Made by a program: the position numbers. A stretch of 64,000 bases of DNA, taken from assembly GCF_988243305.1 (NCBI RefSeq), contig NZ_OZ547137.1; one strand, written 5' to 3'. Shown here one piece after another: positions 48,230 to 52,782 of this stretch. How positions within the stretch are numbered: the first letter of the stretch is position 1; each line of letters begins with the position of its first letter. The stretch comes from a plasmid.

Positions 48230-51200
48230 TCCAGTGCATCCAGCATGAATGTCGTTTCCATGGACAATGATACCCACCATCCCACGATATATCCGGCAAA
48301 TACATCAATGATGAACGCCACATAGACGAAGCCCTGCCATGTGCTGACGTAAGTAAAATCAGCCACCCACAGCTGGTCAGGACGTTCTGCCACGCACTGA
48401 CGGTTTACGCGGTCACCTGCGGCAACGGTTTTCCGGCTGACGGTAGTGCGGACCTTTTTACCCCGGAGAACACCGGCAAGTCCCATAACCGCCATGAGGC
48501 GCGCCACTGTACATCTGGCCACCCTGATTCCTTCCCGTAACAACTGACGCCAGACTTTACGCACACCGTACACCTGATGATTTTCATCGTATACGCGCTG
48601 TATCTCTCTCTTCAGCCAGTCATCGCGCTGTGCATGTGCACTGCGTTTATCAGGATGATGTCTCTGTTGCTGACAGTGGTAATACGTTGACGGGGCAATA
48701 TGCAGTTCACTGCATACCGGTCTGACCCCGTACTGCTCACGCAGCTTATCCAGCAGTGCCATCACTTTTTCCAGAGGCGGTCGAACTCCGCCTTCGCAAA
48801 ATAAGCGGAAGCCTGGCGAAGGATATTGTTGCTGCGGCGCAGTTCACGATTTTCACGTTCCAGCTCTTTCAGACGCTGACGTTCAGCACTGGTGAGCCCT
48901 CCATCTCCGCCCCCGGTATCCCGCTCATACTGGCGAACCCAGACACGCAGAGTCTCCGGCGTACAGCCAGTCTTTGGAGCAATGGAACAAATTGCCGCCC
49001 ATTGTGAGTCATATTCGCCCTGACTTTCCAGAACCATACGAACTGCCCGTTGACGGACTTCGGGGGAAAAACGAGTATTTTTAGTCATCCTGTTTACCTC
49101 TTTCTCAGGGAGTTTAGTCTCCAGGATTTCCGGGGCGGTTCAACTCCGTTGCCTCATCAGTTGTGGTCTACAGCAACATCCACCATTAAACCGCCAACAC
49201 AGACTGTTCCGCGTTAAACGAGTGCGGCGGTACTTTCAGCCCGGAAACCTGGGGAGCGCGCTCGCAGGCATCAGTCTGTTATTTGTTGAAGGGGTTATTT
49301 CCTGCTCTTGTGAATGGAGTTACCGAGATAATGATTGGGTCGAAAGACTCGGCACGCCCTTTTTTTTATGTAAATTCCATAGGCTTAAGCGATGTAAAAC
49401 GTTTACATTTGCTGGAGTCTTTTTATTGACAGATAGTTAACATCTTTGTGATAAACATCACATATGCAAATTTTCATAATAACGAAAACAAAATACAGAA
49501 TAACACTTCCTCCCTCGATATATTACGTTACCCTAACGATAAAATCGGGCGAGTAACAAATATGAAAGTTTATAATTTTGATAAAGTTATTTCACGCGAC
49601 GGAACCTATAGCGCTAAATATAATAACAAGGGGCGTGACATCATTCCTCTGTCTGTAGCTGATATGGATATTCCTGTAGCTGATTTTATAGTTTCTGAAT
49701 TATCTGTCGCAAATCAGAAAGGTATCTACGGTTATACATTATTAAGTGATGACTGGCAGCAAGTGGCAGCACAGTGGTATCAACGCCATTACTCGTGGAA
49801 GGTCAACCCTGAACACATTGTTTTTTGCCCACGGGTAGTACAGGCCGTCTCATTATTTATCCAGAACTTTACCCAACCGGGAGATGCTATTGTCAGCCTG
49901 ACACCAGCCTATCATCCTATTAGTCATGCAGTTAAAGTCAACCATCGAGTATTGCTGGAAAGTGCGTTACTTTATCGTGACCACCACTATGAAATAGACT
50001 TTGCGGATCTCGAAGATAAGTTTAAAATGGCTTGTTGTTTCATTCTAATATCGCCGCATAATCCAACAGGAACAATCTGGTCAGAAGACAATCTAAGGAA
50101 AATAGCTTCATTAGCAGAAAAATATAATATTTTTATTGTTTCTGATGATGTTCATGCAGACTTCAACTTCACCCAAAAACAACATCAAACAATTTCTTCT
50201 ATAAGCTCATACGTTGCACAAAACTCGTTTATTTGTACATCTCCAGCAAAAACTTTTAATATGGCCGGACTTGAAATCGCAAATATTGTTATTGCTAACG
50301 ATAAATATCGTGAACAGTTTAAATTAGCTCTTATTGCAGCAGGTATCCATAATCCTGGTTATTTCTCTGTTCCTGCATTTCTCTGTGCTTACCGCCATGG
50401 CGATTCTTGGTTAGCAGCATTAAAAGATTATTTGGTCGAAAACAGGAGCTGGGTTCAATCATTCTGCCAAGCTCATTTTCCAGACTGGTTTGTCGCCTCT
50501 GGTGGCGGAACTTACATGTTGTGGATCGACTACCGGGCAATGAACATCAGCGAAGAACAACTACGCCATTGGTTTGTCTCGCTCGCAGGTGTTGAGATGA
50601 GCTGGGGATCAGATTTTGGCGATGAAGGACTTGGTTTTTTCCGTGTGAACATAGCCACGCCGAGAAGCAATCTTACACAAGCATTTGAACGGATTTATCA
50701 GAGCATCCCCTTCACTACAGGAGTTTCCCTTCATGAATAATAACAATACTCCAAGATCCCCAACTCTGGTGGAATCATTATTACCAATACTAGCTATGAT
50801 ACTATTGCTGGGATTTGGTTATGCGGCATTCGATCTGCCACCTGAGCCATTAATGGTTCTTTCAACCGTCATTGCTGCACTGTTAGTTAAGCGGTTGGGG
50901 TATGGCTACAATGCAATCCTTGAATCAATATCGCAGAAAATCGCTAAAACAATGCCTGCTCTGCTAATTTTGATCAGCGTGGGCCTCCTGATTGGGACAT
51001 GGATGATAGGCGGTACTATTCCGCTGATGATTTATTACGGCCTTAATCTGATAAATCCTTCCATGATCTATGTGACGGCCCTGCTCGTTACTGCCATCGT
51101 TTCTGTATGCACAGGGACATCCTGGGGATCCGCAGGCACCGTCGGTGTTGCGTTTATGGGTGTGGCTATCGGAATGGAGGCTAATCTGGCAGCAACTGCA

Positions 51201-52782
51201 GGCGCTATTGTGGCAGGGGCTTACTTTGGGGACAAACTGTCTCCCCTTTCTGGTGATACTAACTTAGCCGCAATGGCAGCCCAGATAGATCTCTATGAAC
51301 ACATCGCTCATTTACTTTATACAACCCTTCCTTCATTGATACTGTCAGCCTTTGTTATGACGCTCTATGGGATGAATGGCGAGCTCGGCGGCTCAAACAT
51401 TCCCGAAAAAATTCAGCTAATCACTGAAGGATTAAAAGGAATTTATCATTTTAATTTATTGTTATTGCTACCCATTGCCATTGTCCTGTACGGTTCGATT
51501 ACCAAGAAACCAACCATTCCAATTATGCTTGTTTCGGCACTGGTAGCCATGATCAACGCCAGCGTTATTCAGGGGTTCGCACTACACGACATTGTTAAAA
51601 GTGCAGTAGACGGATTTAACGTTTCAATGCTTACCGATAAAGATGTTAATCCGCTATTAGGTAATTTGTTAAACCGCGGTGGCATGAACTCGATGATGAG
51701 TACGTTGCTTATTTGTTTCTGCGCCCTTTCATTTGCGGGAACATTAGCCTTGAGCGGCGCTTTAGAAGTCATCGTCCATAATCTGCTCAAATTAGTTCAT
51801 TCCACAGGAACCATGATTCTTGCGACTATTGCCTGTGGTTTAACAATGATTAGCGTGACCTGTAATGGTCAGATATCAATCCTGATTCCGATTGAAATGC
51901 TACGAAGTGCTTATATTGAGCGCGGCCTACATCCAAAAAATCTGGCAAGGACTGTAGAAGACTCTGCCACCATATTTGAACCAATTCTGCCCTGGACTGC
52001 CGCGGGTGCCTACATGGCAGGTATACTTGGCGTTGCTACATTAAGCTATCTTCCGTGGGCTATTCTCTGCTGGAGTGGCATTTTCTTTGCGACGCTGTGG
52101 GGGTTCACAGGCTTTGGTATCGCTCGATTGTCCAAAGAAAAGCAGCAACAGCTCATGATGGAAACCATAAATGAAAGCAAATAGAATCGGCCTGATTAAT
52201 ATATTTGATAGTAATTAACCACGTCTACACGCCGCCCCCGATTGCGGCGTGATGTCTGTTACTCTCGCTTCAGCCGTTTGGAATTGCACAGCCACAGGGT
52301 GCTCACCAGTAGCAGGAACGCCGCAGTACATCCATAGACGCTTTATGATCGACGATGATTAATCACACAACCGTGGTGATCCCGATATAGATGTCACGAA
52401 CAGTGCAAAAGTGGCTCTTCCACAACTTGGGTGGAGATTTTCATGCCAGTGGACTCATTACCCTCTGCCTGAGTAGTTCAAATCCTGCTCGACCATACAT
52501 CTGGCGTTTCAGCATCTTCAGGCGATTTACATGACCTTCGACAACACCATTACTCCAGCGACTACTGATTGCCTCACATATAGCTGCAGCATCAGCTTCC
52601 ATCCCCGCCGCCACGCGCCGAAATTCTGCTGAACCGCTTTCGTGGACTCGAGTGAACCAACTGCTTAGCTGTGATTTATTTTGGGTTTTCAGAATACGGT
52701 AGAACTCGAGTGCCAGTTGCTGCGCTATTTTCAGCTCTGAACCGCCCCGGGTTTCCTGGAGAGTGTTTTATCTGTGAACTCA

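What the first reader, a model, noticed from the sequence alone, without database searches (positions are those of the whole stretch)
49562..52184. AT-rich two-gene module: MalY/PatB-type C-S lyase translationally coupled to an NhaC-family transporter
The lyase stop overlaps the transporter start by 8 bp, and both genes are much more AT-rich than the flanking IS elements. The pairing suggests import of a sulfur-containing amino-acid conjugate followed by C-S cleavage. The module is bracketed by IS629 and ISL3 ends, so it is mobile cargo of foreign origin.
Basis: inference. Interest (0 to 1): 0.3.

Follow-up and report, generated by a model that had tools for sequence, protein, structure and literature searches.

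The report
Xylose-regulated lyase–transporter operon on mobile DNA
This is a real, intact two-gene operon (a vitamin-B6-dependent beta-lyase plus an NhaC-type membrane transporter) that E. coli took from a Citrobacter-like chromosome; in other bacteria it sits inside xylose-utilisation operons and it still carries a xylose-responsive promoter, so it probably imports and splits a xylose-linked amino acid rather than being a simple sulfur-amino-acid module.

Summary
A PatB/MalY-family PLP lyase (49562-50740) overlaps an NhaC-family transporter (50733-52184) by 8 bp. Both genes are AT-rich (40.5% and 44.9% GC; flanks 53%). They lie between an IS3-family end (49142) and an ISEc38/ISL3 fragment (52392-52737).

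The module is 99.3-99.9% identical in about 378 of 5426 complete E. coli genomes, on chromosomal islands and F-type plasmids. It derives from a Citrobacter-like chromosome: C. freundii has malG-lyase-nhaC-psiE at 91.7% identity, and the E. coli module keeps a psiE stub and a dnaB stub.

The new point is the context. Nearly every lyase orthologue of at least ~43% identity has the NhaC gene immediately downstream. The pair is embedded in xylose operons in 25 of 25 surveyed gammaproteobacterial species (AraC-type XylR) and in two Bacillales (unrelated ROK-type XylR). The E. coli copy retains a perfect CRP box and a XylR operator.

Best reading: a xylose-regulon uptake and beta-elimination module. 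The leading substrate candidate, which is inferred, is O-xylosyl-L-serine, giving xylose, pyruvate and ammonia.

The sulfur substrate is untested, and nothing here supports it beyond the family assignment. Function is unproven.

The parts
48214..49142 (-). Truncated IS3-family element (IS629-like orfA/orfB'). Its terminal inverted repeat TGAACCGCCCCGG... (read on the minus strand) ends at 49142. It forms the left boundary of the module.
   Evidence: ORFs. IR read. A second copy of the same IS aligns up to 49142. RefSeq annotates an 'IS3 family transposase' with an ALIL pseudoknot. The name IS629 comes from my memory of its OrfA and was not tested.
49143..49357 (.). Decayed donor remnant shared by all E. 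coli copies. Positions 49178-49347 are a dnaB fragment.
   Evidence: 90.1% identity to C. freundii dnaB, which lies about 19 kb from the pair in the same record and orientation; 84% identity to E. coli dnaB. No open frame.
49358..49561 (+). Promoter/leader region (31% GC), homologous to the Citrobacter malG-lyase intergenic region.
   Evidence: Alignments. GC.
49392..49408 (.). Perfect 7-N3-7 palindrome ATGTAAAACGTTTACAT. Function unknown. Found only in the Citrobacter/E. coli lineage.
49447..49462 (+). CRP box TGTGATAAACATCACA, a perfect TGTGA-N6-TCACA.
   Evidence: The box is conserved at the same position in 11 other species.
49467..49506 (+). XylR operator: two direct repeats ending ...CATAAT and ...CAGAAT, 21 bp apart.
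   Evidence: A PWM trained only on xyl-embedded loci of other genera scores 30.1 bits here. This is the best hit in the 64 kb on both strands (next 18.3; background -41 +/- 12). 0 of 2000 shuffles of the promoter region reach it. The same PWM picks out the E. coli K-12 xylF (28.7 bits) and xylE (24.6 bits) promoters. The consensus is from PMC3561964.
49562..50740 (+). PatB/MalY-family fold-type-I PLP-dependent beta-lyase, 392 aa; PLP-binding Lys230.
50733..52184 (+). NhaC-family secondary transporter, 483 aa. Its start overlaps the lyase stop by 8 bp.
52228..52251 (+). GC-rich hairpin (8 pairs, 7 G-C) between nhaC and the psiE stub. Terminator-like, and conserved in Citrobacter.
52259..52391 (-). 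3' remnant of donor psiE, carrying a 10-bp deletion. This is the right end of the Citrobacter-derived DNA.
52392..52737 (-). End fragment of ISEc38 (ISL3 family), cut at 52737 by another IS3-family element that carries a group II intron.

Best explanation
The module is a horizontally acquired two-gene operon driven by cAMP-CRP and XylR. In its native settings it is an accessory part of xylose-utilisation operons.

Proposed mechanism:
1. The NhaC-family protein imports a beta-substituted amino acid that carries xylose or yields it. The leading candidate is O-beta-D-xylosyl-L-serine, the stub left when animal proteoglycans are degraded.
2. The PatB/MalY-type PLP enzyme removes the beta-substituent by alpha,beta-elimination.
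3. This releases free D-xylose plus 2-aminoacrylate, which becomes pyruvate and ammonium.
4. The xylose feeds XylA/XylB and, through XylR, induces the operon further.

Shown here: gene identities, operon coupling, Citrobacter-like origin and IS capture, conserved lyase-NhaC pairing, embedding in xyl operons, and the CRP + XylR promoter.

Inferred: that the transporter carries the lyase's substrate, that the reaction is a beta-elimination, and the identity of the substrate.

My confidence is about 0.7 that this is a xylose-regulon uptake-plus-lyase unit. It is about 0.3 that the substrate is specifically O-xylosyl-serine or a close xylose-amino-acid conjugate.
For: 1. Pairing. Of 53 lyase orthologue loci at 41% identity or more, 47 have the NhaC orthologue immediately downstream and 3 more are cut by a contig end. 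Only 1 of 27 more distant homologues is paired. The top 120 NhaC homologues come from the same taxa.

2. Xylose context in Gammaproteobacteria. All 25 species surveyed have xyl genes within 7 kb, in at least four arrangements:
- xylR<|lyase-nhaC-xylA-xylB in Proteus, Serratia and others
- xylBA<|lyase-nhaC-xylFGH-xylR in Pasteurella
- xylBA<|xylFGH-lyase-nhaC-xylR in H. influenzae and Aggregatibacter
- xylBA<|lyase-nhaC-xylR with no xylFGH, in an H. influenzae variant and in Necropsobacter

3. Xylose context in Firmicutes. The same link appears under the unrelated ROK-type XylR: ROK<|xylA-xylB-lyase-nhaC in Lentibacillus and Scopulibacillus.

4. Promoter. Where the pair has left the xyl locus (Citrobacter, K. 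oxytoca, E. coli) it kept the CRP box and XylR operator.

5. Position. In Citrobacter the pair sits exactly where E. coli K-12 has xylE.

6. Reaction type. RidA, an enamine/imine deaminase, follows the pair in about 25 Paenibacillus species, which fits a beta-elimination product.

7. Enzyme integrity. The PLP lysine and family invariants are intact. Nine residues are invariant in 58 paired lyases and in at most 7% of 27 unpaired relatives, which marks a distinct specificity clade.

8. Selection. dN/dS against Citrobacter is 0.15 for the lyase and 0.04 for nhaC.

9. Chemical precedent. LmbF is a PLP enzyme that beta-eliminates an S-glycosyl-L-cysteine (PMC11794154).

10. Transporter precedent. 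The NhaC superfamily includes a predicted methionine transporter (MetT, also found in an mdeA-metT operon) and a predicted arginine/ornithine transporter (PMC2940859, PMC6615313).

11. Ecology. Xylose in mammals occurs in glycosaminoglycans, and xylAB/xylR contribute to Salmonella systemic infection (PMC11610547).
Against: - No biochemical data exist for any member of this clade.
- As far as I know, every characterised PatB/MalY enzyme cleaves C-S bonds. I know of no precedent for PLP-dependent elimination of an O-glycosyl serine.
- In about 25 Paenibacillus species the pair has its own PAS_6/HTH_22 regulator and no xyl genes within 7 kb.
- No NhaC-family member is known to carry a glycoconjugate. 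NCBI's model calls this protein an equivalog of the Na+/H+ antiporter NhaC.
- The XylR operator is predicted from a PWM and an alignment, not measured.
- The reported occurrence of xylosyl-serine in human urine is from my memory of 1960s literature. It was not retrieved here.
Confidence: 0.4

Rival explanations
1. The pair is a generic sulfur-amino-acid module: the transporter brings in cystine, cystathionine, lanthionine or an S-substituted cysteine, and the lyase cleaves the C-S bond to give a thiol or H2S plus pyruvate and ammonia. On this view the xylose link is only a regulatory habit.
For: - TIGR04350 'PatB family C-S lyase' scores above its cutoff.
- The closest solved structures are C-S lyases: PatB, cysteine-S-conjugate beta-lyases and cystalysin.
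- RidA association.
- The NhaC-superfamily protein MetT is a predicted methionine transporter and occurs in an mdeA-metT operon.
Against: - It does not explain why the pair stays inside xyl operons through at least four rearrangements, in two phyla, under two unrelated regulators. It also does not explain why the pair keeps a XylR/CRP promoter after leaving the locus.
- There is no S-box, T-box or other riboswitch in five Firmicute loci.
- Nine clade-specific invariant residues separate these lyases from their unpaired relatives.
Confidence: 0.25
2. The NhaC-type protein is itself a xylose (or xyloside) carrier, a functional analogue of XylE. The lyase is an accessory with a different role, for example a MalY-like protein that modulates the regulator.
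For: - The pair occupies the xylE slot in Citrobacter.
- Several xyl loci contain no other transporter: Proteus, Serratia, the H. influenzae variant, Lentibacillus.
- E. coli MalY is a homologue annotated as a negative regulator of MalT.
Against: - The lyase is always immediately upstream of the transporter and is often translationally coupled to it. That is unexpected if their functions are unrelated.
- A regulator-binding role would have to work on two unrelated regulators, AraC-type and ROK-type.
- No NhaC-family sugar carrier is known.
- Catalytic residues and the carboxylate-binding Arg361 are conserved.
- Identity to MalY is only 28%.
Confidence: 0.12
3. The database names are literally correct: a Na+/H+ antiporter for ion and pH homeostasis sits next to an aminotransferase or cystathionine beta-lyase of methionine metabolism, with no joint function.
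For: RefSeq and NCBIfam names.
Against: Adjacency is conserved across phyla, the two genes are translationally coupled, they share a sugar-regulon promoter, and RidA is linked. TIGR00931 matched at 598 bits, but no antiport activity has been tested for this protein. To my knowledge the NhaC family also has members that exchange organic solutes.
Confidence: 0.05
4. In E. coli the module is passive hitch-hiking cargo with no current function.
For: It sits in IS-rich, decaying DNA with psiE and dnaB stubs, truncated IS elements and a group II intron. A few genomes carry truncated or IS-disrupted copies. Within E. coli there are too few substitutions to measure selection.
Against: Both ORFs, the promoter and the terminator are intact. 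374 of 378 genomes keep at least 80% of the module at 99% identity or more, in several different islands and on plasmids.
Confidence: 0.08

Closest known systems
E. coli MalY (malX-malY operon)
   Same: Same PLP fold-type-I PatB/MalY family, and the PLP lysine aligns (K230 with K233). Like MalY, the gene sits directly next to a transporter gene inside a sugar regulon whose link to the enzyme's chemistry is unexplained.
   Different: Only 28% identity. The partner here is an NhaC-family carrier, not a PTS EIIBC. The regulon is xylose (XylR/CRP), not MalI/MalT. Nothing indicates a regulator-binding role.
B. subtilis PatB and cysteine-S-conjugate beta-lyases (PDB 6qp3, 9k71, 8y54; cystalysin 1c7n)
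   Same: These are among the best sequence matches with solved structures (E 1e-72 to 1e-59). The TIGR04350 score is above its cutoff.
   Different: This is a distinct clade with nine invariant residues of its own (A18, F88, R91, Q94, L184, D196, E238, H263, N264). The obligatory NhaC partner and the xyl context are not seen for the more distant, unpaired lyase homologues surveyed here.
LmbF of lincomycin biosynthesis
   Same: A PLP enzyme that beta-eliminates a glycosyl-amino-acid conjugate (S-glycosyl-L-cysteine). It shows that sugar-bearing cysteine derivatives can be substrates (PMC11794154).
   Different: It is biosynthetic, not catabolic, and the bond is C-S rather than the proposed C-O. 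It did not appear among sequence matches at E<=1e-20.
Catabolic 'permease + PLP lyase' operons (tnaA-tnaB, dsdX-dsdA, cyuP-cyuA; Clostridium mdeA-metT)
   Same: Same design: a dedicated importer is co-transcribed with the eliminating enzyme. mdeA-metT even uses an NhaC-superfamily carrier (PMC6615313).
   Different: The enzyme family, the regulator and the presumed substrate all differ. None of those operons is part of a sugar operon.
XylE and XylFGH xylose transporters of E. coli
   Same: Same regulon logic (CRP + XylR operator). The pair occupies the xylE position between malG and psiE in Citrobacter.
   Different: The transporter family is unrelated, and a lyase always accompanies it.

Membership tests
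PatB/MalY C-S lyase family (TIGR04350; PF00155 fold-type I) | Profile score above the curated cutoff over the full length | tested here: met
   371.3 bits against a cutoff of 340, covering residues 6-382 of 392. PF00155 scores 122.8 bits.
PatB/MalY C-S lyase family (TIGR04350; PF00155 fold-type I) | PLP-binding lysine and the conserved cofactor/carboxylate residues | tested here: met
   K230 (SPAKTFN) aligns with MalY SGSKSFN. N167, D195, H198, Y117 and R361 are invariant in the orthologue alignment. The roles of these residues are assigned from knowledge of the family, not tested.
PatB/MalY C-S lyase family (TIGR04350; PF00155 fold-type I) | C-beta-S lyase activity on cystathionine, cystine or cysteine S-conjugates | not testable with these tools
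   This needs an enzyme assay.
NhaC family (PF03553 / TIGR00931; TCDB 2.A.35) | Profile score above the curated cutoff | tested here: met
   TIGR00931 scores 597.7 bits (cutoff 370). PF03553 scores 198.6 bits. No solved structure is found by sequence.
NhaC family (PF03553 / TIGR00931; TCDB 2.A.35) | Na+/H+ antiport as the physiological activity | not testable with these tools
   The context (coupling to a lyase, a xyl operon, RidA) argues for an organic solute. Other members are predicted methionine and arginine/ornithine transporters.
XylR/CRP-activated xyl promoters of Enterobacterales | An operator of about 37 bp made of two direct repeats (gaAa-a-a-AAT, twice) next to the -35, with a CRP site upstream | tested here: met
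   The CRP box at 49447-49462 is perfect. The operator at 49467-49506 scores 30.1 bits with a PWM trained on other genera. The same PWM finds K-12 xylF (28.7) and xylE (24.6).
XylR/CRP-activated xyl promoters of Enterobacterales | Xylose- and cAMP-dependent transcription in vivo | not testable with these tools
   This needs a reporter fusion or RNA measurements.
Composite transposon | The same IS at both ends, moving the cargo as a unit | tested here: not met
   The left end is IS3-family and the right end is an ISL3-family (ISEc38) fragment. The right neighbour differs in UTI89 and IAI39. Target-site duplications were not examined.
Horizontally acquired cargo with an identifiable donor locus | A collinear donor region with truncated flanking donor genes | tested here: met
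   C. freundii has malG-lyase-nhaC-psiE at 91.7% nucleotide identity. The psiE stub (52259-52391) and the dnaB stub (49178-49347, 90.1%) come from the same neighbourhood and orientation.
Catabolic permease + PLP-lyase operons | Conserved adjacency and co-transcription of the carrier and the eliminating enzyme, with a RidA-type deaminase in some lineages | tested here: met
   47 of 50 informative orthologue loci are paired. The genes overlap or lie under 130 bp apart. RidA is downstream in about 25 Paenibacillus species.

The most novel reading that the evidence does not exclude
The pair encodes a previously unrecognised route for scavenging glycosylated amino acids. An NhaC-family importer would take up O-xylosyl-L-serine, the universal proteoglycan linkage stub, and a PatB/MalY-type PLP enzyme would act as an O-glycosyl-serine beta-lyase. 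The products would be xylose, pyruvate and ammonia.

If true, this would explain three things:
- why animal-restricted Pasteurellaceae, including H. influenzae, keep xylose operons
- why extraintestinal E. coli islands and F plasmids carry this module
- possibly why MalY-type lyases sit in sugar regulons, an old puzzle
Probability: 0.27. Interest if true: 0.8.

Novelty: new variant of a known kind. Interest (0 to 1): 0.5.

Why it matters
Both genes are currently named by homology alone ('MalY/PatB family protein', 'Na+/H+ antiporter NhaC'), and no function is assigned to the pair.

The comparative evidence here gives a sharp, cheap-to-test hypothesis. The pair would be a xylose-regulon uptake and lyase unit that turns a host-derived xylose conjugate into central metabolites.

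If this is right, it identifies:
- a new substrate class for PLP beta-lyases and for NhaC-family carriers
- a nutritional source of xylose inside animals
- a candidate fitness determinant spread by IS elements and F plasmids among extraintestinal E. coli, and present in H. influenzae, Proteus, Serratia, Klebsiella and Citrobacter

If it is wrong, the strict link between this lyase-transporter pair and xylose operons, under two unrelated regulators, still needs an explanation.

Tried and rejected
- **Literature.** No paper characterises the pair, links a PatB/MalY lyase to xylose operons, or describes bacterial catabolism of xylosyl-serine. The Firmicute xylose-regulon reconstruction PMC2873477 mentions neither gene.
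- **Riboswitch or T-box upstream of the lyase.** None was found in five Firmicute loci, and none in the window region. This gives no sulfur- or amino-acid-specific RNA signal.
- **Remnant 49090-49360.** Translating it gave only stop-ridden frames. A DNA search then identified it as a dnaB fragment.
- **Palindrome at 49392-49408.** I considered a LacI-, TyrR- or MalI-type operator. It matches neither spacing and is absent outside Citrobacter and E. coli, so it is left unexplained.
- **MalY-like anti-activator role.** Judged unlikely, because the pair occurs under both AraC-type and ROK-type XylR.
- **Lyases at 41-42% identity without NhaC (L055, L060).** These are a different paralogue group with unrelated neighbours.
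- **Contexts in Tessaracoccus and Lederbergia.** They were not decisive. Lederbergia has GH2 and GH43 genes 1.7 kb upstream, which is only a weak hint.
- **Not run.** I made no structure prediction, because the tool returns no coordinates and could not place the clade-specific residues. I made no metagenome scan.
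Full report
**1. Observation**

- The lyase runs from ATG 49562 to the stop at 50738-50740 (392 aa).
- The transporter runs from ATG 50733 to 52184 (483 aa).
- The sequence ttcATGAATAA gives an 8-bp overlap, with AGGAG 9 bp upstream of the second start.
- The lyase scores 371.3 bits on TIGR04350 'PatB family C-S lyase' (cutoff 340) and matches PF00155.
- The transporter scores 597.7 bits on TIGR00931 (cutoff 370) and matches PF03553.
- GC is 31.4% in the promoter, 40.5% in the lyase (GC3 34%) and 44.9% in nhaC. The IS-rich flanks are at 53.0% and 53.6%.

All parts of the observation are confirmed.

**2. Boundaries and origin**

The window is part of an E. coli F-type plasmid island; pNORD58_1-like plasmids match at 99.9%.

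On the left, an IS3-family (IS629-like) element ends with its inverted repeat at 49142. On the right, a 346-bp end fragment of ISEc38 (ISL3 family) spans 52392-52737. It is itself cut by another IS3-family element that carries a group II intron.

The stretch 49143-52391 is 99.3-99.9% identical in about 378 of 5426 complete E. coli genomes, with 363 chromosomal and 40 plasmid places. Examples are UTI89, next to the cutC microcompartment island, and IAI39, in a selC island. The sequence to the right of 52391 differs between these contexts.

The donor is Citrobacter-like:
- A C. freundii record has malG-lyase-nhaC-psiE at 91.7% nucleotide identity.
- Homology runs from 49358, through the promoter, both genes and the terminator hairpin (52228-52251), into the 3' end of psiE. 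The psiE stub is truncated at 52391 and carries a 10-bp deletion.
- The 215 bp between the IS end and the promoter contain a dnaB fragment (49178-49347). It is 90.1% identical to C. freundii dnaB, which lies about 19 kb away in the same orientation in that record.

The module is therefore a piece of a Citrobacter-like chromosome with an internal deletion, captured in IS-rich DNA. It is not a composite transposon, because the two IS elements belong to different families.

dN/dS against Citrobacter is 0.15 for the lyase and 0.04 for nhaC.

**3. The pair is an old, conserved unit**

A scan of one genome per species returned 80 loci.
- 53 loci encode a lyase at 41% identity or more.
- 47 of them have the NhaC orthologue immediately downstream.
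- 3 are cut by a contig end, and 3 lack the NhaC gene. Two of those three belong to a different paralogue group.
- Only 1 of 27 more distant homologues is paired.

The transporter is more conserved than the enzyme: 61-86% against 44-72% identity. Its top 120 homologues come from the same taxa. The 8-bp overlap is shared with Klebsiella and Pasteurella.

**4. The unexpected context: xylose operons**

In all 25 gammaproteobacterial species in the scan, the pair lies among xyl genes. These species cover Proteus (nine loci), Providencia, Zophobihabitans, an unnamed enterobacterium and about 14 Pasteurellaceae genera. Serratia, P. multocida, H. influenzae and one further gammaproteobacterium, looked up separately, show the same.

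At least four arrangements occur:
- xylR<|lyase-nhaC-xylA-xylB
- xylBA<|lyase-nhaC-xylFGH-xylR
- xylBA<|xylFGH-lyase-nhaC-xylR
- xylBA<|lyase-nhaC-xylR, with no xylFGH

H. influenzae has both of the last two forms. In the last form the pair is the only transporter-bearing unit of the locus.

The same link exists in Bacillales under the unrelated ROK-type XylR repressor. Lentibacillus and Scopulibacillus have ROK<|xylA-xylB-lyase-nhaC.

In about 25 Paenibacillus species the pair instead has a PAS_6/HTH_22 regulator upstream and RidA downstream.

**5. The E. coli copy kept the xyl promoter**

Upstream of the lyase lie a perfect CRP box (49447-49462) and two direct repeats 21 bp apart ending in AAT (49467-49506). 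This layout aligns base for base with the lyase promoters of 11 other species. It fits the published XylR operator: about 37 bp, gaAa-a-a-AAT twice, next to the -35 (PMC3561964).

I trained a PWM only on loci from other genera. Its scores are:

| Site | Score (bits) | Note |
|---|---|---|
| Window 49467-49506 | 30.1 | Best of 64 kb on both strands; next 18.3; 0 of 2000 shuffles of the promoter reach it |
| E. coli K-12 xylF promoter | 28.7 | Top hit in its locus |
| E. coli K-12 xylE promoter | 24.6 | Top hit in its locus |
| Citrobacter lyase promoter | 28.5 | |
| K. oxytoca lyase promoter | 22.5 | |
| H. influenzae lyase promoter | 30.1 | |
| Firmicute loci | no hit | |

In Citrobacter the pair sits between malG and psiE, exactly where K-12 has xylE. 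E. coli's own XylR and CRP are therefore predicted to drive the acquired operon.

**6. Mechanism**

The design is a dedicated carrier co-transcribed with a PLP eliminating enzyme, with RidA in one lineage. This is the design of catabolic operons such as tnaAB or mdeA-metT. The latter uses an NhaC-superfamily carrier (PMC6615313).

The catalytic lysine (K230, aligned with MalY K233) and the family invariants are intact.

The link to xylose persists across rearrangements, across phyla and under two unrelated regulators. Some xyl loci have no other transporter. I take this to mean that the pair feeds the XylA/XylB pathway.

The simplest substrate that needs an amino-acid-type beta-lyase and yields xylose is O-beta-D-xylosyl-L-serine, the linkage stub of animal proteoglycans. 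Elimination would give xylose, pyruvate and ammonia, and the xylose would induce XylR. This step is inference.

Support for the inference:
- The host range is dominated by animal-associated bacteria.
- Xylose in mammals resides in glycosaminoglycans, and xylAB/xylR matter for Salmonella infection (PMC11610547).
- There is chemical precedent in LmbF, which acts on S-glycosyl-cysteine (PMC11794154).
- Nine clade-specific invariant residues, mostly polar or charged, mark the paired lyases.

Against the inference:
- There is no biochemical precedent for C-O elimination of a glycosyl serine.
- Paenibacillus loci are not linked to xyl genes.
- No NhaC-family glycoconjugate carrier is known.

**7. 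Rivals**

No S-box or T-box was found in Firmicute loci.
- NhaC as a xylose carrier, with the lyase as a MalY-like modulator, is hard to reconcile with strict coupling and with two unrelated regulators.
- The literal 'antiporter plus aminotransferase' reading and the 'dead cargo' reading are each unlikely, given conservation and intact signals.

**8. Novelty and verdict**

The genes are annotated in RefSeq only by family. I found no paper on the pair, on its xylose link, or on bacterial use of xylosyl-serine. A pan-GWAS of non-typeable H. influenzae lists xylA, xylB and an 'NhaC family protein' among genes enriched in blood isolates. That fits their being one accessory locus (PMC11932112).

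I classify the finding as a new variant of a known kind: a carrier plus PLP-lyase operon, with a new regulon link and possibly a new substrate class. Interest is moderate to good because the hypothesis is specific and cheap to test. The function remains unproven.

Noticed in passing
window 49392-49408: Perfect palindrome ATGTAAAACGTTTACAT, about 40 bp upstream of the CRP box. It is conserved in C. freundii but absent from K. oxytoca, Serratia, Proteus, Pasteurellaceae and the K-12 xyl promoters. It may be a lineage-specific operator or a leftover of the malG terminator region.
   Followed up: partly
window 49178-49347: A dnaB fragment of Citrobacter type (90.1%) is fused to the lyase promoter. 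It implies a deletion of about 19 kb (mal genes and others) in the donor segment before or during capture.
   Followed up: yes
window 52738-56320: An IS3-family (IS629-like) element is interrupted by a group II intron: ltrA ORF at 53343-54866 on the minus strand, and an Rfam Intron_gpII hit at 53253-53339. The same IS-with-intron arrangement sits on the left side of the module in IAI39 and in plasmid pJBEHAAB-19-0176_1.
   Followed up: partly
window 48039-48161: Strong Rfam hit to the isrC Hfq-binding sRNA (142.5 bits), inside the 5' end of a second IS3-family element (46980-48193) that abuts the IS629-like fragment.
   Followed up: no
window ~41100-46904: Another cargo block lies upstream: GntP permease, PdxA-like dehydrogenase, four-carbon acid sugar kinase, DeoR regulator and a KpsF/GutQ-type isomerase. 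This looks like an acid-sugar catabolic cluster. Coordinates below 46900 are transferred from the matching plasmid annotation and were not checked base by base.
   Followed up: no
L103 (H. influenzae CP148891.1) vs L102: H. influenzae strains differ. Some have xylFGH between the xylA promoter and the lyase. Others lack xylFGH entirely but keep lyase-nhaC with xylAB and xylR.
   Followed up: partly
L096 (E. coli K-12 4240779-4243516) vs L004: K-12 has xylE between malG and psiE, where Citrobacter has the lyase-nhaC pair. The xylE promoter shows the same layout of a CRP half-site plus a XylR operator (24.6-bit PWM hit).
   Followed up: yes
L099 (Neobacillus vireti) 7001-15185: A 46%-identical lyase has no NhaC. 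It is instead followed by a sugar-type ABC system (SBP_bac_1 and two permeases) with a histidine kinase and an AraC-type response regulator. This may be non-orthologous replacement of the carrier by a carbohydrate-type importer.
   Followed up: no
L056 (Lederbergia lenta) 2531-5284: GH2 and GH43 glycoside hydrolase genes lie 1.7 kb upstream of the lyase-nhaC pair.
   Followed up: no
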